Assembly: GCA_964016885.1 (NCBI GenBank)
Contig: OZ024745.1
Coordinates: forward strand, 48,608,001-48,672,000
Reading direction: 5' to 3'
DNA length: 64,000 nucleotides
DNA from: Eledone cirrhosa
Taxonomy: Eukaryota
In this document: in pieces, positions 21,301 through 49,556 of the stretch
How the letters are laid out: each line of letters opens with the position of its first letter
How positions within the stretch are numbered: the stretch's first letter is position 1
Notes under the pieces: model-generated
Told to the model about the DNA's origin: nothing
Seen by the model: only the letters and a program-made list of their open reading frames with translations
Database searches by the model: none
Translations under genes and position numbers: made by a program

Positions 21301-22881
21301 GTTCATATTAGTAATGCTTATAGTTCATGGTAGTAATGCTTATAGTTCATATTAGTAATGCTTTTAGTTCATATTAGTAATGCTTTTAGTTCATATTATA
21401 ATGCTTATAGTTCATATTAGTAATGCTTATAGTTCATGGTAGTAATGCTTATAGTTCATATTAGTAATGCTTATAGTTCATGGTAGTAATGCTTTTAGTT
21501 CATATTAGTAATGCTTTAGTTCATATTAGTAATGCTTATAGTTCATGGTAGTAATGCTTATAGTTCATGGTAGTAATGCTTATAGTTCATGGTAGTAATG
21601 CTTATAGTTCATATTAGTAATGCTTATAGTTCATATTAGTAATGCTTATAGTTCATATTAGTAATGCTTATAGTTCATATTAGTAATGCTTATAGTTCAT
21701 ATTAGTAATGCTTATAGTTCATATTAGTAATGCTTTTAGTTCATATTAGTAATGCTTATAGTTCATATTAGTAATGCTTATAGTTCATGGTATTAATGCT
21801 TTTAGTTCATATTAGTAATGCTTATAGTTCATATTATAATGCTTATAGTTCATATTAGTAATGCTTATAGTTCATGGTAGTAATGCTTATAGTTCATGGT
21901 AGTAATGCTTATAGTTCATATTAGTAATGCTTATAGTTAATATTAGTAATGCTTATAGTTCATATTAGTAATGCTTATAGTTCATGGTAGTAATGCTTAT
22001 AGTTCATATTAGTAATGCTTATAGTTCATATTAGTAATGCTTATAGTTCATATTAGTAATGCTTTTAGTTCATATTAGTAATGCTTTTAGTTCATATTAG
22101 TAATGCTTATAGTTCATATTAGTAATGCTTTTAGTTCATATTAGTAATGCTTATAGTTCATATTAGTAATGCTTATAGTTCATATTAGTAATGCTTATAG
22201 TTCATGATAGTAATGCTTATAGTTCATATTAGTAATGCTTATAGTTCATGGTAGTAATGCTTATAGTTCATATTAGTAATGCTTATAGTTCATATTAGTA
22301 ATGCTTTTAGTTCATATTAGTAATGCTTATAGTTCATATTAGTAATGCTTATAGTTCATATTAGTAATGCTTATAGTTCATGGTAGTAATGCTTATAGTT
22401 CATATTAGTAATGCTTTTAGTTCATGGTAGTAATGCTTTTAGTTCATATTAGTAATGCTTATAGTTCATGATAGTAATGCTTATAGTTCATGGTAGTAAT
22501 GCTTATAGTTCATATTAGTAATGCTTTTAGTTCATATTAGTAATGCTTATAGTTCATATTAGTAATGCTTATAGTTCATGGTAGTAATGCTTATAGTTCA
22601 TGATAGTAATGCTTATAGTTCATGGTAGTAATGCTTATAGTTCATGGTAGTAATGCTTATAGTTCATATTAGTAATGCTTTTAGTTCATGGTAGTAATGC
22701 TTTTAGTTCATATTAGTAATGCTTATATTTCATATTAGTAATGCTTATAGTTCATGGTAGTAATGCTTATAGTTCATATTAGTAATGCTTATAGTTCATA
22801 TTAGTAATGCTTTTAGTTCATGGTAGTAATGCTTATAGTTCATATTAGTAATGCTTTTAGTTCATGATAGTAATGCTTATA
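12338..22881. repeat. 22-bp minisatellite, ~10.5 kb, roughly 470 copies, interrupted by a SINE near its left edge
   Basis: Unit AGTAATGCTT(A/T)TAGTTCAT(ATT/GGT), with rare variants and a few 21-bp units. Confidence 0.98.
12408..12595 (-). mobile_element. tRNA-derived SINE, full length, inserted in the minisatellite
   Basis: Minus strand: A-box-like TGGCAGTATCGG, B-box-like GAGTTCAAATCCC, central GCCTTTCATCCTTACGGGGTCGATAAAATAAAGTACC (resembles the Meta/MESC SINE domain, from memory). Flanked by a duplication of TAGTTCATATTAGTAAT. Confidence 0.9.
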
Positions 22882-24334: not shown

Positions 24335-24604
24335 ATCATCATCATCATCATCGTCATTGTTTTTATGTCTGCTTGTTTATACTTGCATGGGTTAGATGAG
24401 TCCTCTCTAGTAGTAGATCTCTCCATTTGTTTTTTTTCTTTTGTCATCTGCCTTGAGAGACACCGTTTCTTAAGATAAGCTTTCACCATCTCATCTCTTA
24501 TTTTTCTTAGTCTTCCTCTTTCATGACCTCCTTCCACTATGACTTCTTTACTTAATGGTCATTCTCTTTACATGTCCATACCGGCATAACCTCCTCTCCT
24601 TCTT
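24335..24604 (-). mobile_element. Degraded RTE 3' fragment
   Basis: Minus strand ERRLCRYGHVKRM...GRLRK plus AACCCATGCAAG...(ATG)n tail. Confidence 0.7.
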
Positions 24605-24614
24605 GCTAGATTTA

Positions 24615-25088
24615 ATTTTCGAGGTCATAAAGCATGGCTTGGACGCTGTGAGCTTCCCTTCCCAGCTCGAGCCAGTGGGGCTGGACCGAAGGGACGGCAA
24701 AAGGCCAGATAGCATGACCATCTTCCCGTTCTGCGGTGGCAAACCCCTCGTCTGGGATGCTACTTGCACCGACACTTTCTGCAGCCGCAACCTGGTGCAG
24801 TCTGCCACTAACCCAGGTTCTGCTGCACGTCGGGCTGAGGAGGCCAAACTCCTCAAATACCGTTCACTCTCCAACAGGTTTGCAGTTGTACCCCTGGCAG
24901 TGGAGACTTCTGGTGTCCTTGGCCCCAGGGTTACCTCCTTACTCACCACCATAGGTGCTGAGCTGGCCAGCCCAGGTGTGAATCTCGCAAGTTGGAGTGG
25001 CTTTTCCAGCGCGTCTCCCTTGCCGTCCTCCATGGGAACGCCTTCTCCATCCTGTCCGCCAGGGCTGTTGGGGAGCCCCATCACATAA
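24615..25088 (+). mobile_element. CRE-like non-LTR retrotransposon fragment (restriction-like endonuclease domain)
   Basis: LEPVGLDRRDGKRPDSMTIFPFCGGKPLVWDATCTDT...AARRAEEAKLLKY...VPLAVETSGVLG: PD..D/K-KY RLE signature typical of CRE-clade elements. Confidence 0.8.
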
Positions 25089-29231: not shown

Positions 29232-29391
29232 TAGATGTAGTTCCATAACAGTTAGTTCACCATTACCGAGAACAATTGTTTCACCTCATTCGGATCATCA
29301 ATTCTTAGACCAGTCTGAGAGCTGATGATCCAAATAAGGTGAAACAGTTGTTCTCGGTAATGGTGAACTAACTTTTGTAGAACTACTTCTA
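29232..29391. repeat. Imperfect palindrome, 79-bp arms and 2-nt spacer, each arm with a hammerhead-like core (probable Penelope terminal-repeat relic)
   Basis: Symmetric about 29311/29312 with about 10 mismatches, mostly transitions; CTGATGA-TCCAAATAAGGT-GAAAC-AGTT-GTT at 29322-29352. Confidence 0.85.
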
Positions 29392-29553
29392 CCAAACTTG
29401 TCCCATGGACTGAGTGCTCTACTACTACGGATATAACCCACTAGTGTTCTACTATTATATATATATATATAAATAAATATAAATATACATACATGTACAG
29501 ATGGACACACAAGGATTCATACATATACGCACTTATATATAAATATAATATAA

Positions 29554-32015
29554 TGGGAGTTCCTAAAAAATAATTTACTAGAGGCGACGGATGAGGTCTG
29601 TGGCTGGAGTAAGACCTCAAGCAGGAGGAGAGTGACTTGGTGGTGGAACAATAAGGTAGATGAAGCAGTTAAGGCCAAGAGACAGGCATGGAAAGAATGG
29701 AAGAACGGGGGGAGCAGGGTACATTACATAGAGACCAAGAGGGAAGCTAGGCGACAAGTATACTTAGCTAGGAGGGAAGCAGAGGATAGAAAATTCAAGC
29801 ATGTTTTACAACGTGAGGACCAGAAACAGGAGGTATTCAAGATTGCAAGGCAGTGTGTCAGAGATAGTTGTGATGTCATTGGAGAGAAGTGTATCCGGAA
29901 TGATAAAGGTGAGCTTGCCCTCACAAGTGCTGAGAAGAAAGATGCATGGAAGAGTCATTATGATAGATTACTAAATGAGGAGAATGCATGGGAAGAAGAG
30001 ACCCTACCCCAAGTAGACCCTATAGAGGGACCAGCAGTACAAGTCAGCAGCAGCGTAGTAAGTAAGGCAATCAAAGATATGAAGATGGGGAAGGCAACCG
30101 GTCCATCGGGTATAGCTGCCGAGATGCTGAAGGCATCTGGGTCTGTAGGTCACACTATAACCACACGTATCGTTAACCAGGTAATACTAGAAGGGGCCAT
30201 ACCAAAAGATTGGTGCAGTAGCATCATTGTCAACTGCTACAAAGGTAAAGGCGATGCACTAGATAGAGGAAACTATAGAGGTATAAAGTTGATGGACCAG
30301 GTCATGAAAGTAACAGAAAGAGTTATAGCACAGCTGATTAGGGACCGGGTGAATATAGACGAGATGCAATTTGGGTTTGTACCAGGAAGAAGCACCACTG
30401 ATGCCCTCTTCCTTGTGAGGCAATTACAGGAAAAGTACCTAGCTAAAAGTAAGCCACTCTACTTGGCATTTGTCGACCTTGAGAAAGCCTTTGACAGAGT
30501 TCCACGTGCTGTAATCTGGTGGGCTCTTAGAAAACTAGGAGTAGATGAATGGCTTGTGAAAGCGGTACAAGCCATGTATAGGGGAGCAGTCAGCAAAGTT
30601 AGGATTAGCAATGAGTATAGCGAGGAATTTAGCGTACAGGTTGGGGTCCACCAGGGCTCTGTTCTTAGCCCTCTCCTGTTCATCATAGTCCTGCAGGCAA
30701 TAACGGAGGAGTTTAAGACCGGATGCCCATGGGAACTCCTGTATGCTGATGACCTCGCACTCATAGCTGAATCTATGGTAGAACTAGAGAATAAATTCCA
30801 AACCTGGAAGCAGGGACTAGAGAGAAAGGGTCTCAAAGTCAACATGACCAAGACTAAGGTCCTTGTAAGTAGACGAGAAAACAGAACCCAGATCCCCTCG
30901 GGGAAATGGCCTTACTCAGTATGAAGGAAAGGTGTAGGTAGGAACTCCATTCTCTGCCCCAAATGCAAACAATGGGTACACAAGAGATGTAACGGGATCT
31001 CAGGAAGCTTAATTAAGAATGTAGGATTCACATGCAGCAGCTGTGCGGAAACAGCAATCAGCAAACAGCCACAGGAAACAAGTACCACCAATCTCTGGGA
31101 GGGCCCTGTAGAAACAGTAGACAGCTTCTGCTACCTAGGTGACCGAATTAGCAACGGAGGTGGGTGTTCAGAAAGTACAATAACTAGGGTAAGAACGGGA
31201 TGGAAGAAGTTTAGGGAACTACTACCACTGCTAGCTGCAAAAGGCTTCTCCCTCAGAATGAAAGGCAGACTGTATGATGCGTGTATCCGAACAGCGATGT
31301 TGCATGGTAGTGAGACCTGGGCGCTGAAGGTGGAAGACTTACGTAGATTAGAGAGAAACGAAGCCTGCATGCTCTGATGGATGTGTAACAGTAATATACG
31401 TGAACGACAAAGCATAAATGAATTGAGAGAGAGACTGAGCACAAGAGGAATCAAATGCTGTGTGCAGGAGAGGCGGTTGCGCTGGTATGGACATGTGATG
31501 CGTATGAAGGATGACAGCTGCATAAAAAGGTGCAGAGCACTAGAAGTTGATGGAAACCGCGGAGTGGGGAGACCCAAGATGACCTGGGATGAGGTGATAA
31601 AAGCCGACCTTACCCAATTACACCTCTCAAAGACAATGACACACGACCGTGACTTCTGGCGTCACGCAGTAATACAGGGTACCCGACCTCCCATGGGTAC
31701 ATGCTGAAGCATATAAACAATATGCCCCCACACCCCCCACCGCAAGGTGGTCGTGGAGGTGCCACGGCAAAAAAGCACCCAGCCCACACTGTAAAGTGGA
31801 CGTGTAGGCGCCACGAAAAAGCACCCAGCACTCACTGTAAATGAGGTTGGTGTTAGGAAGGGCATCCAGCTGTAGAAATCAAGCCAGATCAGTTCCTGTA
31901 TGAGCAAGGCATGGTCAGCCGACCAGACACTGCCCACAACAGGACAACCCGTCTAACCCATGCTAGCGTGGAAGAACGGACGTAAAACGGTGATGATGAT
32001 GATGATGATGATGAT
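29554..32015 (+). mobile_element. RTE-clade LINE, 5'-truncated, RT pseudogene with 3' UTR and (GAT)n tail
   Basis: One frame from 29554 to 31707 with two stops (30922-24, 31375-77). Motifs NYRGIKL, QFGF..GRSTTDA, FVDLEKAFDRV, GVHQGSVLSPLLF, LYADDL, FCYLG, LHGSETW, RRLRWYGHV, GRPKMTW. No endonuclease domain present. Confidence 0.95.
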
Positions 32016-34001: not shown

Positions 34002-34124
34002 GTGGTCTTTGTGATGACTGGAGACTGTGGTGATGTCAGTCATCAAGGCTACAGAGTATATGAAGAAATTGCCTCAACTAGCTCAGGCCAAGTATTTTTG
34101 CTAAAGAAATCCCAAGTAAACCAG
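34002..34124 (+). CDS. HMCN1: Hemicentin internal exon (C-terminal part of VWA domain), 123 bp, phase 0-0
   Basis: Acceptor ttgtttcgttgaAG, donor GTatgt. Translates [41 protein letters not shown], closely matching the hemicentin VWA segment VVFVLTGDC...[16 protein letters not shown]. Symbol denotes family (HMCN1/2 co-ortholog). Confidence 0.93.
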
Positions 34125-34503
34125 GTATGTAAATAAATTTTAATTTTGGTTCTAAATATTTCAATGTACTGAGTATTGCATGTCATTCACTCTATCTTTC
34201 TTTCTCCTCCACACACATACACTGTCTCTCTCTTTCACATACACACATATACACACACCATCTCTCTTTCATACACATACTTACTCCCTCACACACACAC
34301 TTCGTCTTTCTCTCTCTCTCTCTCTCTCACATACTCTCCCTCTTTTCTATTTGACTGTATGTCTCTCTTCCCATCCTCAGTGCAGGAGAACAATCCTTCT
34401 TTTACTTAGTAAAAAAACAAAAATAAAATAAATAATAAAATATTAGAACTGGGAAAACATTACTTTTAATTTTGCTAGCAATAAACAAATAAAATACCAA
34501 TAT

Positions 34504-35260
34504 TGGTTTCTAATTTAGGCACAAGGTCAGCAATTATATCAGCCCCAGTACTGGAAAGGAAAAGTTGTCTTAAGTAGGATTTGGACTCAGAACATAAATT
34601 ACTAGAACAAATACTGTATAGCATTTGTCTGGAGCTCTAATAATTGTTTCTACTTTTGGCACAAGGCCAGCAATTATCCCAGTGTATTACTGGTACTAAT
34701 GCTGCCAATCCAACAGCCTAATCATAAAAATAGTAATAATAATAATAATAACAACAACAACAACAACAATGGTTTCTGATTTAGGCACAAGGCCAGCATT
34801 TTGGGGGCAGGGGAAAGTCGATTAAATCGACCCCACTACATTACTAATACTTTATTTTATTGACCTCATTAAGATGAAAGGCAAAGCTAACCTCAACAAG
34901 ATTTGAACTCAACATAAAAAGATGTAATTATATATGCCATAAAGCATGTTGTTCAACGCTCTACTAATACAACAATAATGGCTTAAGATTTAGGCACAAA
35001 GACAACAATTTAAGAGAAGAGGAAAGTTGATTACATCAACTTCAGTAATTGTCTGGAACTTTATTTTATCAACTCCAGAAAAGTAAAAGGCAAAGTTGAC
35101 ATCTGCAGGATTTGAACAGAAAGCACAAAGAAACAGTACAAATGTTGTAAAGCATTGTCTTTGAGGTCCTAACAATTCTGCCAAATTCGTTACCCTTAAT
35201 AATTATTTCTAACATTGATACAAGGCCAGTCATTTGGGGGAGCGGAGGTGAGGGCAATTA
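34504..35260 (-). mobile_element. Cluster of diverged or partial SINE copies, all minus strand
   Basis: Repeated TTTAGGCACAAGGCCAGCA...GATGAAAGGCAAAG...GATTTGAACTC blocks. Confidence 0.75.
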
Positions 35261-35487
35261 TAATGACCTAGTGTTTTACTGGTTTCAGTCATTACACTGT
35301 AACCATGCTGGGGTGGTCTCTTGATTTAGTCTATCATATTAACCCCAATAATTATTTTATTGATCCCTTTTTTTTTGCTATGGTACATAAACACAGACAC
35401 AAATGATAATGTGTGTACATGCATACACACACATATATATACATATTTATATAGAAGTCGGCTATATATATATATACACACACACAT

Positions 35488-35689
35488 ATCATCATCATCA
35501 TCATCAGCATCACCGTTTTACATCCGTTCTTCCACGCTAGCATGGGTTAGATGGGTTGTCCTGTTGTAGGCAGTGTCCGGTCGGCTGACCTTGTCTTGCT
35601 TATACGGGAACTGATTCTGGCTTGATTTCTACAGCTGGATGCCCTTCCAGCTGTAGAAATCAAGCCAGAATCAGTTCCCGTATGAGCAA
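35488..35689 (-). mobile_element. RTE 3'-end fragment ending in a fold-back palindrome (35596-35689; 44-bp arms, 6-nt loop)
   Basis: 35488-35648 is the reverse complement of ~31856-32015; the sequence then inverts, with one mismatch between arms. Confidence 0.93.
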
Positions 35690-35778
35690 CATATATACAC
35701 ATATATACATATATATATATACACACACATATATATATACACATATATATATATACACACACATATATATAAATATAT

Positions 35779-35843
<65 letters not shown>

Positions 35844-37883
35844 TATATATATACATAGAGTCGACTTCTTCAGTTTCTCTACCAAATTTCTCTTATATGG
35901 ATTTGGTCAACCTGAAGTTATAGCAAAAGACACTTGCTCAAGATGCTGCACAGCAAAACTGAACCCAGAACTATATGCGGATGAAACAAACTGCTTAACC
36001 ACATGGCCATGCCTGTACCTTTGTTAAAATAATAATGATAATGATTATAAAAATAATCATTTTACGTCTACTTTCCATGCTGGCAAGCATTCGTTGGGTT
36101 GTCACAGTCGAAAATTAGACTGATCGAGGAACCATATTCTTCTTATATATTCCATATTTGGCATGGTTTGTACGAATGGATACTCTTCCTAATGCCAACC
36201 ACTTTACTGAGTGTAGTGAATGTTTTAATCATGGCACCACTACTACTATTTTACAGAGTGTACTGGGTACATTTTTCATAGGACCAGCACTACAACTTTA
36301 CTGATTGTACTGGGTGTATATGATACCAGCACTAACTAATTTACAGAGTTTTCCTAGGGGTATTTTATCATGGTGACAACACTAGAGAAGTTGTCATATT
36401 TTCAGCCAAACTGAAGTCCTCTCTACTTTATATTGTCTCTGTTTTATTGCCAATCACCTTATTTATTTATATTAAATTAATTCTTCTGTATGCCTTGTTT
36501 TGGTCCCCAAGATATTAGAACCGAAAAAACAGAAGGAAATTTATGCTAAAGGATGTATGTAGTTGATGGATGAGAATGTTGTATGAGGTAGACCGGTAGG
36601 TTGTACATATCTTTCCAAACCATAACAAAAGGGGAAGAAGTATAAAAAACAAATATTCAAGCATCTTTGCAATAGTTTTAAAGATTCTTAAGTGGGTTGT
36701 TTGACATATTTTGTTTTGGTATATTTTGATGTTTTGTTTTTTTATCACATTTCATTGATATATATCTGACTGAAGTATATGACACAACAAGCTTTTCCAT
36801 CCAATCCGATAAAGAATTTATCTTGATTTAGCTTAATTTAGTCAACTTGCTATGCATTCTATTTCCGCTCATTCTCACTTCCACACATGTACTTATACAT
36901 ATGTGTGTACTTAAACACACAGTTACACAAATACTCATTCTCTTTCAAATATGTACACCTCCCACACATTCTCTCTTTCTCTTTTTCACACATGCTCATA
37001 TAGATGCACATATATGTATGCAAGCACACACACACAAATACATATTTACCTACTCATATATTCTCTCTCTTTCAAATACATACACCTCCTACACATTCTC
37101 TCATTCAAAAACATACATACACACACCCTCTCTCACTATCGCTTTCAAACACATACACCATCTCAATCTCTCTCTTTCAAACACATACACATACACTATC
37201 TCACACACACTCTCCCTCTCTCTCAAATGCACACAATCTATCTCTCTCAAATACGTACACACATATCCATATACTCACTCTCTCTTTCCCAAACATGTAC
37301 ACACACACTCTCCTCCCCACTCTCTTTCAATCAAATAAATTGTTTAAAGAAAACTAATGTCTAAAAATATAAAAGTTATCTACCTCAACCCCGACCATAA
37401 ACATAATGTCTAGACATTAAATACACAAGTTTCTTCACTACTTATAAAAACAATGTTACCAAGCAAAATGCTGAGCATCCAGAAGAGCATTTCGTGTTAT
37501 AACCCAGCTAGATGGAAAGGAAGGGCCAGGTGTCCTGCGCCACAATTTTAAAGGGAGTCTACCCACCTCAAATTCTAGTTCTTTTATTCTGTTCTGTTAC
37601 TTGTACACTCTAAAGTCTGTCGGAAACCCTGAGACTCATCAGGCCAGTGCATATCTTGGTTTCCTTGGCGTGAAGTGATTGAGAGTACAAGATGTCCCCT
37701 GGACAGGATGCCAGTCCATGGCAGGGTTAAAATCCCAGGTACTGCTGGTACTCATTTTAGCTGAATATACTGGAGCAACATGAAAGCTGCTCAAGAATAT
37801 TGTAAAAAAAACCTGGCTTTTTTACATCAGGCACAAGGACAAATTTATACATATATATGTATAGTAATAATAATAATAATAAT

Positions 37884-38097
37884 CCCTGGCTTAGCAGTGC
37901 TACCGAGGAGCTTTGCCAGTTCGGGATAAACTCTACAGGAATGGAAGTGCCGTCAGCCGGGCATGTCCAAGATGTGCGCAGGACGACGAAACCGTCCTGC
38001 ATGCACTCGTCCAGTGTCCGAGCATTGCTGACTTGTGGGTTTATGTCGAACACCTGCTGTCGCATGTAGAACGGATCCGGCTATCAGCTGAAGACTA
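37884..38097 (+). mobile_element. Tx1/L1-clade LINE fragment (C-terminal CCHC, zf-RVT)
   Basis: LPVRDKLYR...CPRCAQDDETVLHALVQCPSIADLW; inserted after (AAT)n. Confidence 0.72.
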
Positions 38098-38175
38098 AAT
38101 CCAAAGAGGGGTTGATAAGGATAAATATATATCAAATATATAAGAACCATAGAGCAAATATTTAATAAATACATA

Positions 38176-38206
<31 letters not shown>

Positions 38207-38406
38207 TTGTTATTTGTTACTAATATAGTTAGACATCTCAATGAAAAGATAAAATAAAACATTTAAACATATTTAACTTAAGTCAAAATCTCGTTTGGTG
38301 GGATAAAAGCTAGATAGCCTAAAATAAGTCAGTTTCAGTTATTTAATGTCCTCAACTACAGTTATTCTTTGGAAGTGGAAAATACATTATTATAACTATA
38401 TATATT

Positions 38407-38678
38407 CGTTTCTGATTTAGGCACAAGGACAAACATTTTTGGGGAAAGAAAGGTTGATTAAATCAATCCCGTGGCTGTATCAATAGTGTCAGACAAAATG
38501 CTTTGCAGCATAGAGTTATGTCACTTCATGTTCTAATTCCAAATCCTGCTGAAGTTAGCTTTGCCTTTCATCCTTATGGGATCGATAAAATATAGTACCA
38601 GTAATGCACTGGTATCGATTTAATCAACTTTCCCCTCCCCTAAATTTTTGGCTTTGAGCTTAAATCATAAACCATTAT
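38407..38678. mobile_element. Diverged head-to-head SINE pair (short minus-strand 3' end plus longer plus-strand copy)
   Basis: GTTTCTGATTTAGGCACAAGG...GTTGATTAAATC on the left is an imperfect reverse complement of GATTTAATCAAC...CTTAAATCATAAAC on the right. Confidence 0.65.
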
Positions 38679-39559
38679 ATTTATCATCAACAGTAAAATC
38701 TTTAACCGGTTTTCTACGTTTCTTTGCTATTCATAATTTCTTACTGTAAATAAACATAATGTAATCTTTGACTTAATAGTAGAACACTATGGTCGTCACA
38801 TGTCTTGGTATACACATTTTTTGATGGAATATTATTCCTAAACATTTAATCATAGTTTATATTTGTTAATTAGTCATTTCTCCTTGTTTATTCTTTGTTG
38901 TTCTGTTATTCATCTGCAAATTGATATATTAGAAAAATTCTTAAATTGGGAAAATATCTCCCGGAACATTTTTCTACATTTTTCCACTCAGTGGAATCTT
39001 TCTTATATTTATGTCTTTGATTTGTTGCCAAAAATCTAAAGCAAAATAGATTAAATTACCTTCACCGAAAGACTAGAAACTGCGACCTGTTGCCGCGGAC
39101 CCAATGCACAAAACACATAGAAGAAACAATTCCTTAGATAACAAAGTTCTTGTCATTGTTGGTGGCTCACCCTACCGAGGCATCAGGTAATGCTGTGTGT
39201 ATGTGTGGGTGTGGGGGGTGCTTGGTTGTTTCGGCACCTTAGCCTCACTATCATTCGGTTTTACTGAGGTATCAGAGGATGCTATCACCTGCAGTAACGC
39301 TGCTAGTGTGTTGGTTTGCCTCAAAAAGTATTAGAGGGAGGCTCCAGCACTCCTTGTGGTATGTGCCCGATTGACACAGTTAGTGTTGACATAATATTTT
39401 CTTTCGTTTTGATTCTATGTTTTCATGTGAAATATTTATGTCATTAAGTAATAGAGATATATGAGTGTGTAGGTGTTGAATTTTGACAGCTATGTCATTT
39501 TGTGTTTGTAATTTCAAGCTATCTATAGTGTCAGCATATTTGTTTGGGAAAAAATCTGA

Positions 39560-40160
39560 ACTTTTCTAAAGAGAAAAACACAAAAATTTCCTAAAATATG
39601 TACCAAACTTGATTCGGGGTGAGCTACAATTATTGTTTCATTCGATGTGTTTAGTTTATATACTATTATGCCACACTATTGTGGAATAGATGTTAGTTTG
39701 AATTACTGAACCATATAGGAACAAATTTTATTATCAAATGTCTTACGTTTATTCTACAAAAAAATTGTTTTATGTTCAATGAAGTGACAGTAGCAATAAT
39801 ATATGTAAATCCAGTTATGGGTTACCACGGAAAGAAAACTTATGAAGAGACACTAAAGGTATTTTATTCATACTTCAAAGAAAATTGGAAAAGGTTTCTT
39901 GGTGGCTGTTTTATCTTATGGAACAAAATAGAAGATAAACTAGAAGAATTGAAATATATTATAAACATCATAGACACCAATATTCAATTCCCAATGAAAT
40001 TTAACAAGAAACAACTCCCCTTTTTAGATATCTTGATAAAAATAATAGCTGGGTGGTTTGAAACAGATATCTATTATAAACTCACAGACTAAAAATAATA
40101 CTTACTATTCACATCCTGTCATCCAAACCATACAAGAACACATATTCCTTTTACTTTAAC
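39560..40160 (+). pseudogene. Penelope-like element RT remnant
   Basis: IVSFDVFSLYTIMPH, WKRFLGGCFILW (decayed R(Y/F).DD), NIQF....QLPFLDILI, FETDIYYK.TD...YLLFTSCHP: PLE RT/thumb signatures with stops and frameshifts. Confidence 0.8.
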
Positions 40161-40996
40161 GAAGCTGACCCATGCCAGACATCACGTCAATTATCTGAAG
40201 TCTTGGAACATCAAAAACAACCATACTCAATCACTTGGATATAGTAAGGAAGGTTTCAAAGCTGGGCCAATGGGTGCCCCACAACCTGACAGACTAAAAT
40301 TGTGAATGTTAGGTTGCAATTAGGACTTCTCTGCTCTCCTACCATTGCAATGGTTATTTTCCATTGTCACTGGTGATGAAAATGGTGTCTCTACATTAAT
40401 GTCAATTGCAAGCAATGATGGCTTGATAAAGAGAGTGCACCACAACAGCCATCCTTGCAACGCCCTACTGAGTGTCTGGTAGGACTGGAAAGGTGTCGTC
40501 TCCTATGAGCTTCTCCCACTGTACACCACCATAACTTCTGACATCTATTGCCAACAACTTGACAGATTAGGGGTGAAAATCACACAGGTGCACTCAAACC
40601 ATGGTCCAGTTTGATTTTTTCATGATAACGCTTGGCTGCATACATCAAGGATGACTTGTGAGAAGCTGCTGGTGCTAGGTTGGGAGGTCCTGTGCCACCC
40701 GCCATATTCACCTGACCATGCACCTACAAACTATCAACTTTTTCTCTCAATGAACAATTCAATGCAGTCAAATACCTTCACCAATGATGACCAGCTAAAT
40801 CAATGGCTGACAGAGTTCTTTGTATTGAAGCCAGGAGAATTCTGCATGGATGGAATCATGAGCCTTCTTAAACGATGGCAGACGGTAATCACAAATGAAG
40901 GCGATTATTTTGACTTGTAAAATTCTTCGAATCTTAAAAAACACTAAAGTCAATAAAAATGTGAATGACGGTGAGAACTTTCTGTCCAACCTAATA
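40161..40996 (+). pseudogene. Mariner transposase pseudogene with right TIR
   Basis: SKLGQWVPHNL, IVTGDE, HDNA..H, LGWEVLCHPPYSPDHAPTNYQLF; right end AACTTTCTGTCCAACCTAATA followed by TA. Left TIR not seen. Confidence 0.9.
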
Positions 40997-41000
40997 TAAC

Positions 41001-41042
<42 letters not shown>

Positions 41043-42927
41043 TAAGGCGGGTAAAATTCCCGAGATCCATGGACGAGTTCTCTCCAGCGGTCTCTGTCCC
41101 TCATTATCACTGCCATGTCCTGCATCTCCAACAGACCAGTGTCTGTCCTTAGGGCATCAGCACTAGAAGAGGAAGACCAAGGTTAACGTATGTTGATATA
41201 TATATATATATATATATATATGAGTGTGTGTGTGTTTCAAATTATTTTCTCTTTTTTTTTTTAATTGCTTCATCTGAAATCCTGAAATCATATACATAAT
41301 TTGTGCTACCTCATAAAAAAAAACATTACACACTAGCAGCTGTTAGCCAAACTGCATGGAATTCTGAGTGGCATGATTGATGCCAATTGTAATGGCAAGG
41401 AAAAAGGAAGTATTTATATCAAATGTGTAGAAATGCCTTCACAGCTGATTTTAAATCAATGTTGTTCATTTAATAAAAAGCAAAAAATAAAAAAAGTCTT
41501 ATAGAGGAAAGATGCTAGACATGTAAAAGGTAATCCATTTAACTTCTAATGTTACATTTGAGATATACATATATTATTTATATTCTCAGTTAGAAAAAAA
41601 CATTTTGACACATCATATCTTATTTTCCCCGCCTAAAACCAGCCTGATTCTATGATGACAAAACTGCTTATTTTAATGTATTTATATTTGTCTAAAATCT
41701 TTCCAACATAATTTTAGGTAAAATCTTTGTAACACTATATTCTAAATACATTATGTTCTTAATAATGAGAAAGTTTGTGTTTCTAAATCCCTTTTATTTA
41801 AAAAAAATCATAAGCTGTGTCTTTCATTAGAAATATGGTAATGAAATAGTTTAATATGATGTATTCCATAGAAGAAACCATCTGCAATATCCAAAAGCTA
41901 ATTCTTATTTAAATATATGTAATTGAAATTATTTCTCACACTTTGTTTAATTAAATACAAATAAAATTCTTAAGAAATTATTAACTACATTTTTTATCAC
42001 TCCTTTAGGGGGGAGGAGGAGGGGGGGGGGGGGCTTTCATTTCCTAACCCTGATTGCATGGCCTATATTCGTTAGTAGTAGATCATAAATACAGCCTAGA
42101 ATCAAATGTGGTGTCTGAATGACAAATAAATATAAAAATTTCCAGTACACAGCTGATGAGAAGTCTGTTTTTAGAGTAGTATAAGGATATCAAAAACATA
42201 AGTTTATTATACATATGTAAACATTTTTAGTCCTGCTGTTAAGATTATTTTAGGTTAAAACATAAGTTAATGGGAGCATTAATTAGGAAGTAGACTATCA
42301 TGATTTTCATTCTGGTTACTTCATTAGCTGTGTGGTATAATTTATAATTATTATTGATTAGTGTTTATCAAAAATTAAGTGTAACACCAGAACCAATCAA
42401 GTTAGGATCCAAACTCTCAAACTGTAATGAACTTTATTGCAAAGAGGGATGCAATAATACAAAATATTGAACCCTTTGATAACCTGCCCAAAATTGTCTC
42501 TAAAACCACTTATTTTAAAATATCCATATTTAAACTAAAATTTCCCATCATAATTTTATCTCAGAATATTTTGTTATGCTCTAACAACAGAGTTAGACAT
42601 TCTTCTGTTTTATTATTTTAAAAATTAATTAGAAAATATAAGCAGTATTTTGCAAGAGAAATAGTATAATTTTTTGAGGGAAGGGTAGGACTTATTTGGA
42701 AAAAGACATTATAATGTAGTATATTAATTAATTCTGTTCAGTTTTCATAAAAAATAGTTTAGAGGTAGATCTGTTGCCAATTTTCGGTTTCAAATTGGTT
42801 CTTAAGTTTAATATATAGTTTATTTTGAAAATCTGAGAAGCTGATCCATTCATAAAAAGACAAATAACTAATGCAAGCATGGAAAATAGATGTTAAATGG
42901 TAATCATTATGATGATTGTATCATGAT

Positions 42928-43128
42928 GAGGGTGGTGGATTGGCAGTATCATTTGAGCTTCAGACACCATGATTTGCAGCATATAGTTATGGCCCATTAT
43001 GTTCCAAGTTCAAACCCTGCCAAGGTTAGCTTTGCCTTTCATCGTTACAGGGTCAATAAAATAAAGTACTGGTAGCACTGGGGTCGGTTTAATCAACTTT
43101 CCTCTCCCCACTATTTGTTGGCTTTGTG
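42928..43128 (+). mobile_element. Diverged tRNA-derived SINE
   Basis: GGTGGATTGGCAGTATC head, AAGTTCAAACCC B-box-like motif, GCCTTTCATC...AATAAAATAAAGTAC core. Confidence 0.75.
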
Positions 43129-43453
43129 ATGATTGTATCAGTAAAAGCTGTTCTTATGAAGCAATGACAACCCTCAGGTATAAACAGATTCATAAAATAT
43201 ATTTTTATGCTATAGAGACTGAAAGTTACAAAAATATGTTTATAAATTACATGATATTAGTCAAAAAAACTTTATCTAATCATATTTATTTAAGAGGCTT
43301 GAATTTATTTATTCATATGTTTTTTGTAAAATTCATTGGCAATTTATAGACAAAATGGATGTTATATTAAATGTAATATTTTAGTCATAAATTTACTTCA
43401 CTGGCTATGGTACTGCCTGTGGCATATAAAACACACAATCACACACACACACA

Positions 43454-43493
<40 letters not shown>

Positions 43494-43677
43494 GCATGAC
43501 TATATGTATGTTTATTATGCATAAACATATTGTATATGGGTCCATACATTCATTAATTCTGAACCACGCCTTGATAGTGTTATTGCTAATATATATATAT
43601 CATCATCATCATCTAATGTCTGGGAAAACAAGCGTTAAACAATTATAATGATGTGCGTGTGTGCATGTGTGTGTGTG

Positions 43678-43709
<32 letters not shown>

Positions 43710-44074
43710 TTGGATGGTTTAACTAATGGGTAGATCTTATCATTCCAATTAGCAGACCGTGATGTAATAAGCAAAAACACTCAACTTTATGCATATCATC
43801 CACCATAGATGTAGTATCTCGTGGATGGCACCTAAATGGAGTTAAATACTTCAATGAAAAAAGGTTGGATTCTAATATATTCCTTTAATATTGCATCAAT
43901 ACACAATATGTATTTCTGTAACTGGCTGAAGTCATCAGATCAGGATGCAAGACAATCAGCAACAGCATCAGGTGTAATGAACACAAAAGATTTTTAAAGA
44001 TTTAAATGATTTAGTTCAGTAATCCCTACTGGGTTATGGCAGCTGGACCAACGATGCTATTGTCACAGTGAAGG

Positions 44075-44410
44075 TGCATAGCTTAGAGATTAGAGCATTG
44101 GGCTTGCAATTATGAGGTTGTGAGTTAGATTCTCAGACAGAGTGATGCATTGTGTCCTTGAGCAAGACACTCTATATATCATGTGAATCCCAGTTGACTC
44201 AGCTGTAGAAATGAGTTGTGACATCACTGGTGCCAAGCTGTATCAGCCTTAGCCTTTCCCTTAGACAACATTGGTGGCATGGAGAGGGGAGACGGTATGC
44301 ATGGGTGACTGCTGGTCTTCCACAAACAACCTTGCCCAGACTTGTGCCTTGAAGAACTTTGTAGGTGCAAATCCCATGGTCATTCATAACTGAAGAGGGT
44401 CTTTACCCAT
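44075..44410 (+). mobile_element. Second tRNA-derived SINE family (related pieces at ~430-565, 2700-2800, 26755-26812, 27455-27700)
   Basis: Degenerate tRNA head followed by TGTGTCCTTGAGCAAGACACT, a motif typical of CORE/V-type SINE bodies. Confidence 0.6.
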
Positions 44411-45095
44411 TACCTTTTATGTATGTATGTATATGTGTGTGTGTGTATATGTATGTATGTATGTATATGTGTGTGTGCATATGTGAGATCAGTGGCCCCA
44501 CTTCTGTACAAATTTAGTCAGTGAAAACCTGTCCAACACTTGTTAGCAGGGAAAATAGACGTTAAATGATGATGATATATATATACACACACACACACTA
44601 CACACACTATGTTTATTGCCCTGTATAACATTGTCTTCCCTACAGGCATAAAATATATTTTAGACATTTTTTCTTGCAAACAGAAATCATGTTGTTTTGA
44701 AGATCACATGATCTCATTAACTTCTGTTTTAACACAAAAGAAACTTCACAGCATGACTAATTTTTCATACTTGGAATGGATGACTTTTTTTTTTCATTCT
44801 TCAATGCAGTGTGTTGTAATGCAGAATTAAGTTCTCTGCTGGAACATAGTGTTATGAACAATGATTAGATTGAATGTATTATAGAGATAGCTAAACCTTC
44901 ATCTTCCCAACTCCATATATTCTGAAAACATTTGGCCACAAACAGTGAACACCTGCAGCTCTTTCACTGAACTTACTTAACAGAAGGATGTTATAGTATA
45001 AAACCTTACATGGGTACGTGTGAAGACCAAAACATTAGCATTACTTGTTAACAACACAGTTGGCCATAATTGCTGAATAGGCAATGTTAAGTGTG

Positions 45096-45435
45096 ACAGG
45101 AAAGATCAAATAATAATTGTTTCTACTTTTGGCACAAGGCCAGCAATTACCCAGTGTATTACTGGTACTTTATTTTATCGACCCCTGTAAGGATGAAAGG
45201 CAAAGTTAACCTCGGCGGGATTTGAACTCAGAATGGCAAGGGCTGTAACTCTATGCGTCAAAGCATGGCATCGATGCATAGAGTTACGACCCTTGCCATT
45301 CTGAGTTCAAATCCCGCCGAGGTTAACTTTGCCTTTCATCCTTACGGGGTCGATAAAATAAAGTACCAGTAATACACTGGGTAATTGCTGGCCTTGTGCC
45401 AAAAGTAGAAACAATTATTATTTGATCTTTCCTGT
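45096..45435. repeat. Long palindrome: SINE fold-back with ~163-bp arms and 13-nt loop
   Basis: 45096-45259 is the reverse complement of 45273-45435 with about 4 differences. Arms include 15 bp of non-SINE flank (ACAGGAAAGATCAAA). Confidence 0.96.
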
Positions 45436-46012
45436 TAATGTACAGAAACATTATGTTAACCCTTTTGATAACAAAACAGCTAAAATTCACCTCTGGTTCT
45501 ATGAAACAAAACTTGCCATTTTAAAGGGTTCCTATTTAACCCTTTTTATACCAATCTAGCCAAAATTGGCTCTGGTTCTACAAAACAAAGCCAACTGTTT
45601 TAAAGGGTTCCTATATAAATAAACGTTTTCCAACATAATTTTATATAAACCATTTGTTAAATTATCATCTTAGTAATAAAATAATTAATAATTTTAGTAA
45701 ATCACTTGAAATTCTTCATTAACCCTTTTGATATTAACCCAGTAAAATTGGTTCTGGTTCTATGAAACAAAACCAACCATTTTAAAGGGTTCTTATTTAA
45801 ATTAAAATCTTCCCATGAGGAAGTAAGAATGAGATATAGAAGAAAAAAATCAGCCTCAGCACTGGACTGGTACTTTTTTTTATCAACCTGAAAAGTTGAC
45901 CTCAATAGGATTTAAATTCAGAAAGCAGATAAAACTTGAATAAATACCACAAAGCATTCTATCCAACATGCTAGCAACTTTACCAATTCACTGTTTGTAG
46001 TGAAATTACAGG

Positions 46013-46366
46013 TACTCTCAGGTCTTGAATAATCAGCCCCTCCCTCTCCCCACTCACTTATGAATTTTTCAGATGTTTTCCAAATCCCCCGCTTTTATTC
46101 CACTGTCAACCCACTTATTAAATTTTGCTAATCTATCTCTGGTGAAATTTTATTGTATGTGATTCATATTGATACAGCAGCTGGAGAATCTAATAATTTA
46201 TTTTATTATACATTAAAAAAACATTATATATGACAAAAAAAGAACATTGCTAGAAATCCCATATTTACTACAAACATACACTATACAATTATCCCCCCAG
46301 GGCTTATAAGAATTTAAGCAAATATTCACTCCACCCCACCTCCCTATTACTGGGGACCTGAAAGTA
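46013..46366. mobile_element. TA-flanked MITE; a ~57-bp internally deleted relative lies at 62773-62829
   Basis: TACTCTCAGGTCTTGAATAA ... TATTACTGGGGACCTGAAAGTA imperfect TIRs in both copies. Confidence 0.65.
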
Positions 46367-46856
46367 TGTTATCAGAGATGATAGGCTTTATATGCAGCAG
46401 ATACACAGGAGTAATAAGTATTAAGAGTACATGTGAAGAAATGGAATAAAATGTAGCATGAAAGACTCTACTGGTAAAAGTATATGGAAGATAATATAAA
46501 GAAATACAGGATACCCAAGGTGGATAAAAACCTGTGGAAGGTGTAGATCCAGGAAGATATGGGTAGCGGTAATGAAGACTGACTTAATGAAGTTGAACCT
46601 TACAACAAAGGTGGCAAAAAACCATGATAATTGGGAATATGTGATACAGGAGATGACTCACACATCAGTACAAATAAGGCACATTATATGCTCCTAATTA
46701 ATCCCCATTTCTTCCTTTAGTATTCTCTCTATACTATTCCCACTTCACCATCTCAGCTACTAACCTCTATTGTATTCACTGCCCTACTACTATGTAATGA
46801 GGTGTAGTATTTGGTCTATATCTGATCCCTCCATTCATTATTACTATTCTTATCAT

Positions 46857-46990
46857 CCCTTTACGATCTGAGTTCAAATCCCGCCGAGGTTGACTTTGCC
46901 TTTCATCCTTACGGGGTCGATAAAATAAAGTACCAGTAATGCACTGGGTAATTGCTGGCCTTGTGCCTAAAGTAGAAACAATTATTATTA
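46857..46990 (+). mobile_element. 5'-truncated SINE with TSD
   Basis: Family 3' two-thirds; TATTCTTATCATC duplicated on both flanks. Confidence 0.85.
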
Positions 46991-47499
46991 TTCTTATCAT
47001 CACTATTTCTGTACTTCTTCCAACCATTACTTATCTATTTTTTTACCTGTCACTCACCTTCATCATGTTGCCACCAGGGAGGAAAGGGGCATGATAAAAA
47101 AGAGAAAGCAGGCTACAATGAGAAAGATATATACATATATATATCATCATCATCATCATCGTTTAACGTCTATCTTCCACGCTAGCATGGGTTCAGATGG
47201 GAATTGCCCCACTTGAGGCAAGATTGGTCGTCTGGCTCGTATAGGACTGTCTGCCCTTCCTAACATCAACCATGTTTACAGTGTGGACTGGGAGGTTTTT
47301 ACCGTGTTACCTACACGGCCACATTACAGCGTGAACTGTGTGTTTTTTTTGTCGTGACACCTACACGACCTCTTTTATTTAGGACTGGATTTTGTGATAC
47401 CAACATAACTTTACAGAGAAGGGGGGGGGGTTGATGGGGGTGGAGGTGGAGTAAGGGTAGTGGGATGGGGGTGTATATTTGGTATATATGGTATGTATG

Positions 47500-47541
<42 letters not shown>

Positions 47542-47999
47542 TACAAAGTAAAAGAATGAAAGAGAGAAAGTGTTTTATTATTGTTTTCAAGCAATACAAG
47601 TGGGAAAACATTATCTTCAGTTGAATATGTCAAACATAGCAATAGAGAAGTGATGTTAGACAATGTTTTTTTTTTATGACCTTGTTTTTTATTTGCATTC
47701 ATGTTTATTTTAGAATGTAATTTGTTTTAGATAAATACTGCTTTTATATATTCTTATCTTTGTCATAATCATTGTCATCTTCTTCTGTGGATTGATAGAA
47801 TCATTAGAGTGTTGGGAAAAATACCTTATGGTATTTAGTTATGGCTTTTTACATTCAGAGTTCAAATCATGTTGAGGTCAACTTTACCTTTCATATTTCC
47901 AGGGTCGTTAAAATAAAGTACCAGTAGAGTCAATGTAGTTGACTTATCCCTCCTTCCCAAATGGAAGGCCTTGTGCCTAGATTAGATACCATTATTGTG

Positions 48000-48192
48000 A
48001 GGGTGGTGAATTGGCAGTATCAGTAGAGGGTTGGACGCCATGCCTTTCTAGCATAGTTACGTCCCTTTACGGTTTGAGTTCAAATCCTGTCGAGGTTAAC
48101 TTTGCCTTTCATCCTTACGGGGTCGATAAAATAAAGTACCAGTAATGTACTGGGTAATTGCTGGCCTTGTGCCAAAAGTAGAAACAATTATT
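48000..48192 (+). mobile_element. tRNA-derived SINE, inserted at the tail of an older copy (~47785-47995)
   Basis: Full family sequence; ATTATTGTGA on both sides. Confidence 0.88.
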
Positions 48193-48581
48193 GTGATACC
48201 ACATTATTTGTTGTATAAGACACTTTTTTTACTCCCAAATTTCAAGTCAAATTTTGCTAGCATCCTATACATCAAATAAAAATCTCAAATACTACGAGAA
48301 CTATTTTCCCCTTAACGTTTTCTTCCAAAATAAGAGTGTGTGCTTATGAGAATTAGTTCTTGATGGTAAATATAGATTACCAGACACAATTTTATCATCA
48401 TTTAACAACTGGTTTCCCAGCCAGCAAGGATTGAATCAGTATTCAAATAGAGCTACTGATCTTTCAGATAGTCCGAGAGCCTGTATCTTGCTTACTTATG
48501 TTTCTGCGCTGTACTGGGTGCTCGGGTGTGCCAGTGGCCTGCATCTCACTTACAAAACATGACAACAATAATGATAATAAT

Positions 48582-48769
48582 GTGTTTCTACTTTTGGCAC
48601 AAGGCCAGCAATTACCCAGTGTATTACTGGTACTTTATTTTATCGACCCCATAAGGATGAAAGGCAAACTTAACCTCGACGGGATTTGAACTCAGAATGG
48701 CAAGGGCTGTAACTCTATGCGTCAAAGCATGGCATCCGCCCTCTACCGATACTGCCAATCCACCGCCCT
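48582..48769 (-). mobile_element. tRNA-derived SINE
   Basis: Reverse complement of the family sequence, ending 185 bp upstream of a hemicentin exon. Confidence 0.88.
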
Positions 48770-48954
48770 TTGTGATGATAATGATGATTATAAGAACAAC
48801 AACAATAATGGTGATAAGAAACGACAATGAAGGTAACGGTGATGATGATGATCATAATCATAGTGATGATGACAATTATGATCATGATGATGATCTTGAA
48901 GATGTTAGTCTTTCTTCTTTTTTAGTCTGTACCTTACTTGCTTTTCCCCTCCAG

Positions 48955-49126
48955 GTGCTAAACTTTGTCCGTGTTGCAGTACAAAGCAGGAAAGTGAATT
49001 TGATGTCTATTGATTACCCTGAAGGGAGGACAAGTGTGTTCAAGTTGCCAATTGATCCAAGTCTAAAGTCAATTACAATTTCTGTCAGTGGAAATCAACC
49101 AAAAATTTACTTAAAAAATCCTAATG
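48955..49126 (+). CDS. HMCN1: Hemicentin internal exon, 172 bp, phase 0-1
   Basis: Polypyrimidine tract cttttcccctccAG, donor GTtagt. Translates VLNFVRVAVQSRKVNLMSIDYPEGRTSVFKLPIDPSLKSITISVSGNQPKIYLKNPN(G), matching hemicentin 'AVQ..KV.L.S.D...P.DPSLK..T.S.SG..P'. In frame with previous exon. Confidence 0.93.
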
Positions 49127-49370
49127 GTTAGTAAATTACTTTATCATAATAGTTATGGCTGTTGTTGTTCCTTTCTTTGTTATTTATGTGGTTGTTGTTG
49201 TTTAGCCCTAAGTCATCTCTGATCAAAGAAACCAACTTTCCAGTAATGACCAGGCTATCTTCCTATAATTATTTATGTGTTTGTCCATCAGTAATCAATG
49301 AAGACTGTGCATAATCAATTTGGTTTTATGTGTCTGTGGATAGTTGGTGAATCTGATTCCAGTATTGAAA

Positions 49371-49556
49371 TAATTGTTTCTACTTTTGGCACTAGGCCAG
49401 CAATTATCCCAGTACATTACTGGTACTTTATTTTATCGACCCCGTAAGGATGAAAGGCAAAGTTAACCTCGGCGAGATTTGAACTCAGAATGGCAAGGGC
49501 CGTAACTCTATGCGTCAAAGCATGGCATCCGACCCTCTTCCGATACTGCCAATCCA
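49371..49556 (-). mobile_element. tRNA-derived SINE
   Basis: Reverse complement of the family sequence in the short 809-bp intron. Confidence 0.88.

What the first reader, a model, noticed from the sequence alone, without database searches (positions are those of the whole stretch)
45096..45435. SINE fold-back palindrome with an inverted copy of the target flank: candidate snap-back retrotransposition product
Seen: the arms are nearly identical and extend 15 bp past the SINE tail into unique flank (ACAGGAAAGATCAAA / TTTGATCTTTCCTGT), so two independent head-to-head insertions do not explain it. The turn occurs where intact copies read CTATGCGTC-AAAGCATGGCATCC-GAC (see 49508-49533), giving a 3-bp GTC/GAC self-complementarity. 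Known: in target-primed reverse transcription the cDNA grows from the genomic nick, tail first, which is the + strand here. Inference: the cDNA 3' end folded back and was extended on itself through the tail and into the target overhang. The copied flank is similar in length to this family's TSDs in this window (10-18 bp), i.e. an inverted TSD. This differs from L1 twin priming, which inverts without duplicating. The product is a ~163-bp near-perfect dsRNA in hemicentin pre-mRNA.
Basis: partly seen in the sequence, partly recalled or inferred. Interest (0 to 1): 0.8.

Follow-up and report, generated by a model that had tools for sequence, protein, structure and literature searches.

The report
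Jumping-gene snap-back hairpin in hemicentin intron
A short jumping gene (SINE) in a hemicentin intron forms a 340-base mirror-image duplication, one of dozens of the same build in this genome, likely made during insertion when its freshly reverse-transcribed DNA folded back and was copied through its own tail into the neighbouring host DNA.

Summary
The palindrome is real: arms 45096-45259 and 45273-45435 are 97.6% alike around a 13-nt loop, in a 14.8-kb hemicentin intron. A related species has the site without the SINE. It is one of a genome-wide class. Fold-backs recur at independent loci at three micro-hairpins of the element, with the tail outward (11 vs 0; 26 vs 2; at least 30 vs 0). An ordinary direct target-site duplication (TSD) follows the inverted copy in 19 of 39 cases (intact copies 84 of 169; chance about 1%). 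This dates the fold-back to the insertion, so cDNA snap-back is supported. The 'inverted TSD' part is not: in 13 loci the copied flank is 16-186 nt long, and a separate direct TSD often follows. Copying therefore runs into unwound or resected flank. Snap-back junctions are known from engineered R2 insertions, and inverted duplications from L1-made breaks. A fixed germ-line class in a natural SINE, with hairpin-set turn points, was not found in my searches. Palindromes are common genome-wide, so this locus is not special, and no function is shown.

The parts
45096..45110 (+). unique target flank, the template of the inverted copy
   Evidence: orthologous, diverged and SINE-free in organism B
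45111..45117 (+). TAATAAT: target end and SINE tail, the inferred priming point
   Evidence: 66 of 84 TSDs of 10 nt or more end in TAAT
45118..45275 (-). primary SINE copy, lacking about 28 nt of its 5' end (the + strand is the inferred cDNA)
45257..45275 (+). turn: 3-bp GTC/GAC micro-hairpin (now GAT, CpG decay) around the loop 45260-45272
   Evidence: intact copy 49508-49533; same turn at 12 other loci
45273..45420 (+). snap-back copy of the SINE, sense orientation, through the tail
45421..45435 (-). inverted copy of the target flank 45096-45110
   Evidence: 15 of 15 complementary
45436..45439 (+). direct remnant TAAT, likely a short or trimmed TSD; no microhomology at the join
   Evidence: same position as the 10-19-nt direct TSDs of L080, L132, L271, L273, L287
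45441..45450 (+). right flank, reached directly from the left flank in organism B
   Evidence: last 10 letters of the loose end at 45099 match 9 of 10, compared by eye
34125..48954 (+). hemicentin intron (14.8 kb) that holds the palindrome
   Evidence: GT and AG ends, phase 0, flanking exons in frame
49369..49545 (-). intact reference copy of the same SINE subfamily

Best explanation
The locus is a single SINE insertion whose new cDNA likely folded back on a 3-bp self-match and was extended on itself through the tail and 15 nt into host flank before being joined to the far side of the break. Shown: the palindrome; its intronic place; the empty site in a relative; recurrence at three micro-hairpins at independent loci; tail-outward polarity; a direct TSD right behind the inverted copy as often as behind ordinary copies. 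Inferred: (1) target-primed reverse transcription from the + strand end at TAAT; (2) the cDNA stops about 28 nt short of the 5' end and its 3' end pairs intramolecularly; (3) DNA-templated synthesis runs back for a variable distance (8-267 nt among the loci measured), entering flank by strand displacement or over a resected end, so it is not bounded by the TSD overhang; (4) the hairpin opens and the new 3' end is joined to the other break end, by 0-4 nt microhomology or bluntly, here with only 4 nt of direct duplication. The polymerase (the LINE's RT or a host enzyme such as Pol theta or Pol delta) is not determined. The product is most likely a neutral scar that would form a long hairpin in the pre-mRNA.
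For: Hairpin 1 (this locus): 11 matches in cDNA polarity, 0 in the opposite polarity, against 171,922 intact junctions, all with up to 2 mismatches. Hairpin 2: among the 43 loci, 26 end at the inverted copy ('terminal'), 15 return to the element, 1 is a paralogous duplicate and 1 is no hairpin. Among the 12 opposite-polarity loci, 2 are terminal and 10 return (classes set by script and corrected by eye; Fisher p=0.007). Hairpin 3: 30 of 32 analysed loci carry it, opposite polarity 0. An exact direct TSD of 10 nt or more directly follows the inverted copy in 19 of 39 terminal loci (shuffled 1.2%) and in 13 of 32 hairpin-3-set loci; intact copies 84 of 169 (shuffled 2.4%). Flank is copied in 13 loci: window 22, L080 33, L132 21, L053 about 16, and 9 of 32 at 16-186 nt. 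L273 has 186 nt plus a 13-nt direct TSD. In 16 loci the arms carry 57 arm-specific against 11 shared substitutions, 3 of them rare, so duplication dates to about the insertion. Empty site in organism B.
Against: Opposite-polarity events exist: 2 tail-less terminal ones (L094, L098) and one more (L092). Return-type switches are symmetric (15 vs 10), so replication-type template switching also acts on these hairpins. In 1 Mb of evenly spaced sample, palindromes with arms of 25 nt or more numbered 2 in 21.5 kb of SINE and 67 elsewhere (11 from one tandem array), so the SINE is not clearly enriched. At this locus the direct TSD is only 4 nt, the weakest case, and the ortholog differs by small indels there. 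The polarity controls are not equally sensitive (hairpin 3: BLAST vs exact pattern). With only 2 changes per arm, the timing test has little power for this locus alone. No read was seen across the loop or the right junction.
Confidence: 0.8

Rival explanations
1. Post-insertion template switch during replication or repair (four-point type 3-2-1-4): an ordinary SINE insertion was later converted into a palindrome, with loss of its head and most of one TSD copy.
For: Formally gives the same sequence (PMC5453318, passages). Symmetric return-type events, some with inverted loops, show such switching in this SINE. Palindromes are dense genome-wide. The direct TSD here is only 4 nt.
Against: Terminal events are strongly polar. 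The rejoin point sits at the start of a direct TSD as often as in ordinary insertions. Few substitutions are shared between arms. Return-type switches measured here are about 10-30 nt, not 163.
Confidence: 0.11
2. Two RNA-templated events: two head-to-head insertions at one site, or twin priming with overlap from both break ends.
For: This SINE inserts in clusters, and L223 looks like two head-to-head insertions. A few terminal events have the loop inverted (L112), which fits annealing of two strands.
Against: An RNA template cannot supply the inverted genomic flank (15 of 15 here; up to 186 nt in L273). Only 1.8% of 3570 subfamily pairs are as close as 3 differences in 137 positions, and the arms differ at 2.
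Confidence: 0.04
3. Library or assembly artefact (fold-back chimeric read).
For: No read or contig was seen across the loop or the right junction; the contigs on the left junction may come from the assembly's source sample.
Against: The arms differ at 4 sites, 2 of 3 substitutions at CpG, as expected of germ-line decay. Both flanks are adjacent in organism B. Dozens of loci show the same build with TSDs.
Confidence: 0.03
4. A palindromic master element of a SINE subfamily that retrotransposes as such.
For: One fold-back did spread to about 250 places, but as a passenger in another repeat (24 of 25 fetched share both flanks).
Against: Extension lengths differ between loci (8-169 nt), flanks are distinct except L128/L129 and the repeat targets L004/L083 and L043/L086, and the copied flank is each locus's own.
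Confidence: 0.02

Closest known systems
'Snap-back' 5' junctions of R2-mediated PRINT insertions (PMC11371274 and PMC11331408; passages and figure legends read)
   Same: The cDNA 3' end primes DNA synthesis on the cDNA or on nearby target DNA before the 5' junction forms; antisense element sequence joins the target.
   Different: Engineered avian R2 in cultured human cells at rDNA, read from short junction reads. Here: a natural SINE, fixed in the germ line, 10-20-nt TSDs, turn points set by three micro-hairpins, and continuous copying through the tail into up to 186 nt of flank.
L1-induced inverted duplications and foldbacks by remodelling of break ends (bioRxiv 10.1101/2024.12.14.628481; passages read)
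   Same: A self-annealed 3' end on about 2 bp of homology primes synthesis; a TSD-like duplication is kept between the primary and reciprocal ends.
   Different: There the inverted duplications shown are of genomic DNA on the reciprocal end, somatic and rare. Here the turn lies inside the cDNA (primary end) and both element and flank are duplicated.
Local foldback inverted duplications at yeast double-strand breaks (PMC11724301; abstract and outline read)
   Same: Microhomology fold-back, synthesis, then end joining of the other side.
   Different: Mostly 5-34 bp, no retroelement; Pol delta shown there, enzyme unknown here.
L1 twin priming (recalled; cited in PMC11371274's reference list)
   Same: Inverted element sequence at the 5' side inside a TSD.
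   Different: RNA-templated, inverts without duplicating, and cannot copy host flank.
Inverted 5'-truncated copies of Penelope-like elements (PMC8557442; passages read)
   Same: Retroelement insertions with an adjacent inverted truncated copy.
   Different: A regular feature of another class with a 30-40-bp one-sided tail; here a roughly 1% outcome in a SINE with TSDs.
Short template-switch mutations, four-point model (PMC5453318; passages read)
   Same: Creates inverted repeats from little or no homology; likely explains the return-type events.
   Different: Not tied to element polarity or TSD boundaries.

Membership tests
cDNA snap-back junction (as defined for R2/PRINT) | element-antisense (reverse-complement) sequence from the cDNA or nearby target, fused at the 5' junction | tested here: met
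cDNA snap-back junction (as defined for R2/PRINT) | formed before 5' junction closure, in one insertion event | tested here: met
   class level: direct TSD behind the inverted copy in 19 of 39 and 13 of 32; at this locus only 4 nt
cDNA snap-back junction (as defined for R2/PRINT) | polarity of the first-strand cDNA (tail outward) | tested here: met
   11 vs 0; 26 vs 2; 30 of 32 vs 0
cDNA snap-back junction (as defined for R2/PRINT) | dependence on the retroelement protein, seen de novo | not testable with these tools
   needs a retrotransposition assay
   16-186 nt, 5 of 13 above 27 nt; direct TSD follows in L080, L132, L273, L275, L281, L287
L1-type twin priming | inversion without duplication, no host flank copied | tested here: not met
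   148 nt of element and 15 nt of flank duplicated
tRNA-derived SINE | short, high copy, TSD, simple-repeat tail | tested here: met
   about 190 nt; 171,922 matches; TSD median 16; ATT tail
tRNA-derived SINE | Pol III A and B boxes, tRNA-like head | tested here: inconclusive
   A- and B-box-like motifs seen by eye against recalled consensus; ARAGORN finds no tRNA
tRNA-derived SINE | 3' end shared with a partner LINE | tested here: inconclusive
   no LINE with this tail in the loci held; named octopus or Ceph-SINE family not tested
post-insertion template-switch mutation | no strand polarity, switch points independent of TSD | tested here: not met
   not met for the terminal class, met for the return class
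functional dsRNA (editing or small-RNA substrate) | A-to-G clusters or 21-23-nt reads | not testable with these tools
   no RNA run to lay

The most novel reading that the evidence does not exclude
SINE insertion in this lineage routinely (about 1 in 100 copies, of order a thousand loci) writes near-perfect 100-500-bp hairpins that take in up to about 200 nt of unique host DNA, made by the LINE's own RT displacing the flank duplex. This would be a retrotransposition-driven source of locus-specific dsRNA in introns (editing substrates, new small-RNA hairpins), and a fossil record of how 5' junctions are closed in vivo.
Probability: 0.2. Interest if true: 0.75.

Novelty: new variant of a known kind. 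Interest (0 to 1): 0.5.

Why it matters
How the cDNA end is joined and the second strand made in non-LTR retrotransposition is still open. This genome holds many fixed snap-back products with readable turn points, run lengths and TSDs, so questions such as overhang versus resection, microhomology use and run length can be counted on natural germ-line events. Copying of host flank shows the snap-back is DNA-templated and can pass beyond the target overhang. For hemicentin itself nothing functional is shown: the hairpin lies about 11 kb from the upstream exon and 3.5 kb from the downstream one, among other inverted SINE copies.

Tried and rejected
(1) 'Inverted TSD' as a rule: rejected. (2) RT stop at a modified tRNA base (G26, recalled) as the cause of the turn: dropped, since turns occur at several hairpins along the element (about positions 29, 38 and 90-95) and by a 5'-end turn in L269. 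(3) The 258 matches as independent events: rejected, 24 of 25 fetched are one event carried in another repeat; L216 of the random sample is one of them. (4) L269 as an opposite-polarity event: it is a cDNA-polarity fold-back. (5) The short inverted flank in L043: native to its repeat target, not templated. (6) One search's three hits: L091 is not SINE, L092 is a tail-less opposite-polarity event, L093 is complex; they are not in the Fisher table (with them 26 vs 3 and 15 vs 11, not recomputed). (7) Rows dropped: L111 (no hairpin), L129 (paralog of L128), L290 (tail not found), L225 (absent from the hit table). The extension walker stops early at mismatches in L029, L288, L294 and L295 and missed TSDs with one mismatch (L087, L128), so TSD counts are lower bounds. 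(8) Expression: no RNA holder listed. X5 and X21 gave no cover; X6 and X7 no unique-flank cover. (9) Partner LINE: none found; R4/Dong-like elements end in AAT in sense, the reverse of this tail. (10) Rfam on 8 loci gave only sub-threshold hairpin matches and no hammerhead family. (11) Homolog search with one exon found nothing. (12) Earlier scan findings: none. (13) 10.1101/2024.08.27.596794 holds none of six fold-back terms; PMC1716264 is not held.

Full report
Observation. The window is G000:C5:48608001-48672000 of a 3.0-Gb genome; an octopus-like origin is my recall from the repeat's look and the genome's shape and was not tested. Arms 45096-45259 and 45273-45435 align at 97.6% over 164 columns with 3 substitutions and one 1-nt indel. 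Two of the three substitutions are at CpG, which argues against a read chimera. Both arms include 15 nt of unique flank, and a direct TAAT follows at 45436-45439. The element is a SINE of about 190 nt with an ATT tail; 171,922 places match its intact head junction. Exons at 34002-34124, 48955-49126 and from about 49936 match Pfam VWA_4 (below cut-off) and GBD_Hemicentin on +, with in-frame splice ends, so the palindrome lies in a 14.8-kb intron. The 340 nt fold at -300.5 kcal/mol as RNA, which is trivial for such a repeat.

Empty site. A contig of run X4 (organism B) follows 44800-45099 with 16 differences and then leaves the window. Its 30 loose letters hold a diverged version of the flank ending in ATCAAATAA and reach, six letters later, a 9-of-10 match to 45441-45450 (compared by eye). 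So the two flanks are neighbours without a SINE there, and the 15 nt are host DNA. Small indels prevent reading the exact TSD. Contigs of X1 and X2 match the left junction without differences but may be the assembly's source. No read was seen across the loop or the right junction.

Recurrence and polarity. The same turn (GTC/GAC) was found 11 times with up to 2 mismatches, plus this locus and L004. The same hairpin read in the opposite polarity gave 0. A pattern not tied to one hairpin gave 43 loci, 35 of them with the 10-nt gap of an ATGC/GCAT hairpin; the matched opposite pattern gave 12. All 55 were read. Of the 43, 26 are terminal (the inverted copy joins flank), 15 return to the element's head after about 10-30 nt, one is a paralog and one no hairpin. 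Of the 12, 2 are terminal and 10 return (script classes corrected by eye for L090, L110, L121, L123 and re-oriented for L040, L080, L119). Terminal events are polar (p=3e-6), return events are not (p=0.42), Fisher p=0.007. A third hairpin (GC/GC near position 90) gave 40 of 40 scored candidates that span the turn. I fetched 33 and analysed 32, of which 30 carry that loop; the opposite pattern gave 0 (an exact pattern, so less sensitive).

Coupling to insertion. Intact copies have an exact TSD of 10 nt or more in 84 of 169 cases, median 16, 66 of 84 ending in TAAT. Terminal fold-backs have it directly behind the inverted copy in 19 of 39 (shuffled 1.2%), mostly with 0-4 nt of overlap, and 13 of 32 in the third set. 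A later replication switch would have to rejoin exactly at the TSD start each time. In 16 loci the arms carry 57 arm-specific and 11 shared substitutions (3 rare with the neighbour set, 5 with that, which used a partly different locus list). This locus has 0 shared and 2 arm-specific ones in positions 50-186.

Copying of flank. Thirteen loci copy 16 nt or more beyond the element's end (tail repeat included): window 22, L080 33, L132 21, L053 about 16, and 16, 16, 17, 20, 23, 47, 64, 66, 186 in the third set, three of which (L280, L281, L283) are simple repeats. Five exceed the longest non-tandem TSD seen (27 nt). A direct TSD of 10-17 nt follows in L080, L132, L273, L275, L281 and L287. In L273 a target-specific AAC end appears in the primer side, the inverted copy and the TSD. 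The copy is therefore DNA-templated and not limited to the overhang. Here the 19-nt target end does fall in the TSD range, so 'ran off at the second nick, far end trimmed to 4 nt' remains possible for this locus, as does 'short TSD plus 15 nt of displaced flank'. The empty site cannot tell them apart.

Background. In 1 Mb of evenly spaced stretches (100 of the 120 planned) there were 81 good SINE copies and 69 palindromes with arms of 25 nt or more: 2 in SINE (L223, likely two insertions; L225, arms 10% apart) and 67 elsewhere, 11 from one tandem array. In 749 kb of earlier loci, 38 non-SINE and 4 SINE palindromes lay off the targeted centres, one of the 4 being this locus. The other three and L053 (1 of 30 copies fetched as intact) are all tail-outward. 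So palindromes as such are common here. Many belong to recurrent TA-flanked families with a fixed outer end and a variable turn; they look like Penelope-like insertions (PMC8557442), but this was not tested and Rfam gave no hammerhead match. From about 5 unselected events in about 540 copies, and 81 copies per Mb, I estimate roughly 1% of copies and of order a thousand loci; this is rough.

What is known. Snap-back is a named 5' junction class of engineered R2 insertions, priming on the cDNA or less often on nearby rDNA (PMC11371274; PMC11331408; passages and legends only, figures and supplements not seen). Inverted duplications primed on 2-bp hairpins with a kept TSD-like duplication are described at L1-made breaks (10.1101/2024.12.14.628481, passages) and at yeast breaks (PMC11724301, abstract). 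Template-switch mutation is the formal rival (PMC5453318, passages). PMC2912911 (abstract and headings) has a heading that 5' inversion is rare for Alu and SVA. PMC4245944, PMC13282606 and PMC5786205 were searched by passage and added no description of this structure. Searches listed no paper on natural SINE snap-backs with copied host flank. Subscription papers on 5' extra nucleotides of LINEs (seen only as references; one not held) and unread supplements may describe it.

Verdict. A real, insertion-coupled snap-back product (0.8), a new variant of a known kind. Interest 0.5.

Noticed in passing
window 29232-29391 and 35596-35689; L081:1011, L082:122, L054:1082, L119:2876, L229:5032 and many more: Abundant fold-back palindromes, about 1 per 17-20 kb, many in recurrent families with a fixed TA-flanked outer end and a variable turn; several carry hammerhead-like cores by eye. 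Possibly Penelope-like elements folding back at a ribozyme stem.
   Followed up: partly
L244-L268, L216: One SINE snap-back insertion with its TSD has been amplified to about 250 places as a passenger inside another repeat.
   Followed up: yes
L004, L083, L271: Three fold-backs with three different turn points share one target sequence inside a repeat; L004 and L083 then re-prime a second cDNA at the same TSD, giving three TSD copies.
   Followed up: partly
L078, L082, L085, L090, L095-L103, L123-L131: Short fold-back-and-return switches at the ATGC/GCAT hairpin in both polarities, some with inverted loop: candidate template-switch mutations at a defined hotspot in a 10^5-copy family.
   Followed up: partly
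L094, L098, L092: Tail-less, head-only SINE fold-backs in sense polarity without TSD; possibly second-strand snap-back or later repair.
   Followed up: no
L053:about 1150-1750: Full-length SINE palindrome with the TSD copied once directly in the middle and once inverted at the end; both arms share a rare variant.
   Followed up: partly
L135:4391-4531; L125:803-948; L003:2154-2213: Fold-backs in what look like RTE LINE coding and 3'-end fragments (label recalled); the latter two are tail-inward.
   Followed up: no
window 45456-45813: Three diverged copies of an about 80-nt unit right of the palindrome; a high-copy repeat by read depth.
   Followed up: no
window 13000-22500: Long stretch with GC skew about +0.3 and AT skew about -0.2, likely a minisatellite array.
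   Followed up: no
window 29553-30921 (+) and 24542-25085 (+): Open frames of 456 aa with a YADD reverse-transcriptase motif and of 181 aa with motifs of a restriction-like endonuclease LINE: retroelement fragments.
   Followed up: no
L010-L014, L017-L019 (G000:C1:143.3-143.8 Mb): Eight near-identical units spaced about 50-60 kb apart: a large tandem segmental array.
   Followed up: no
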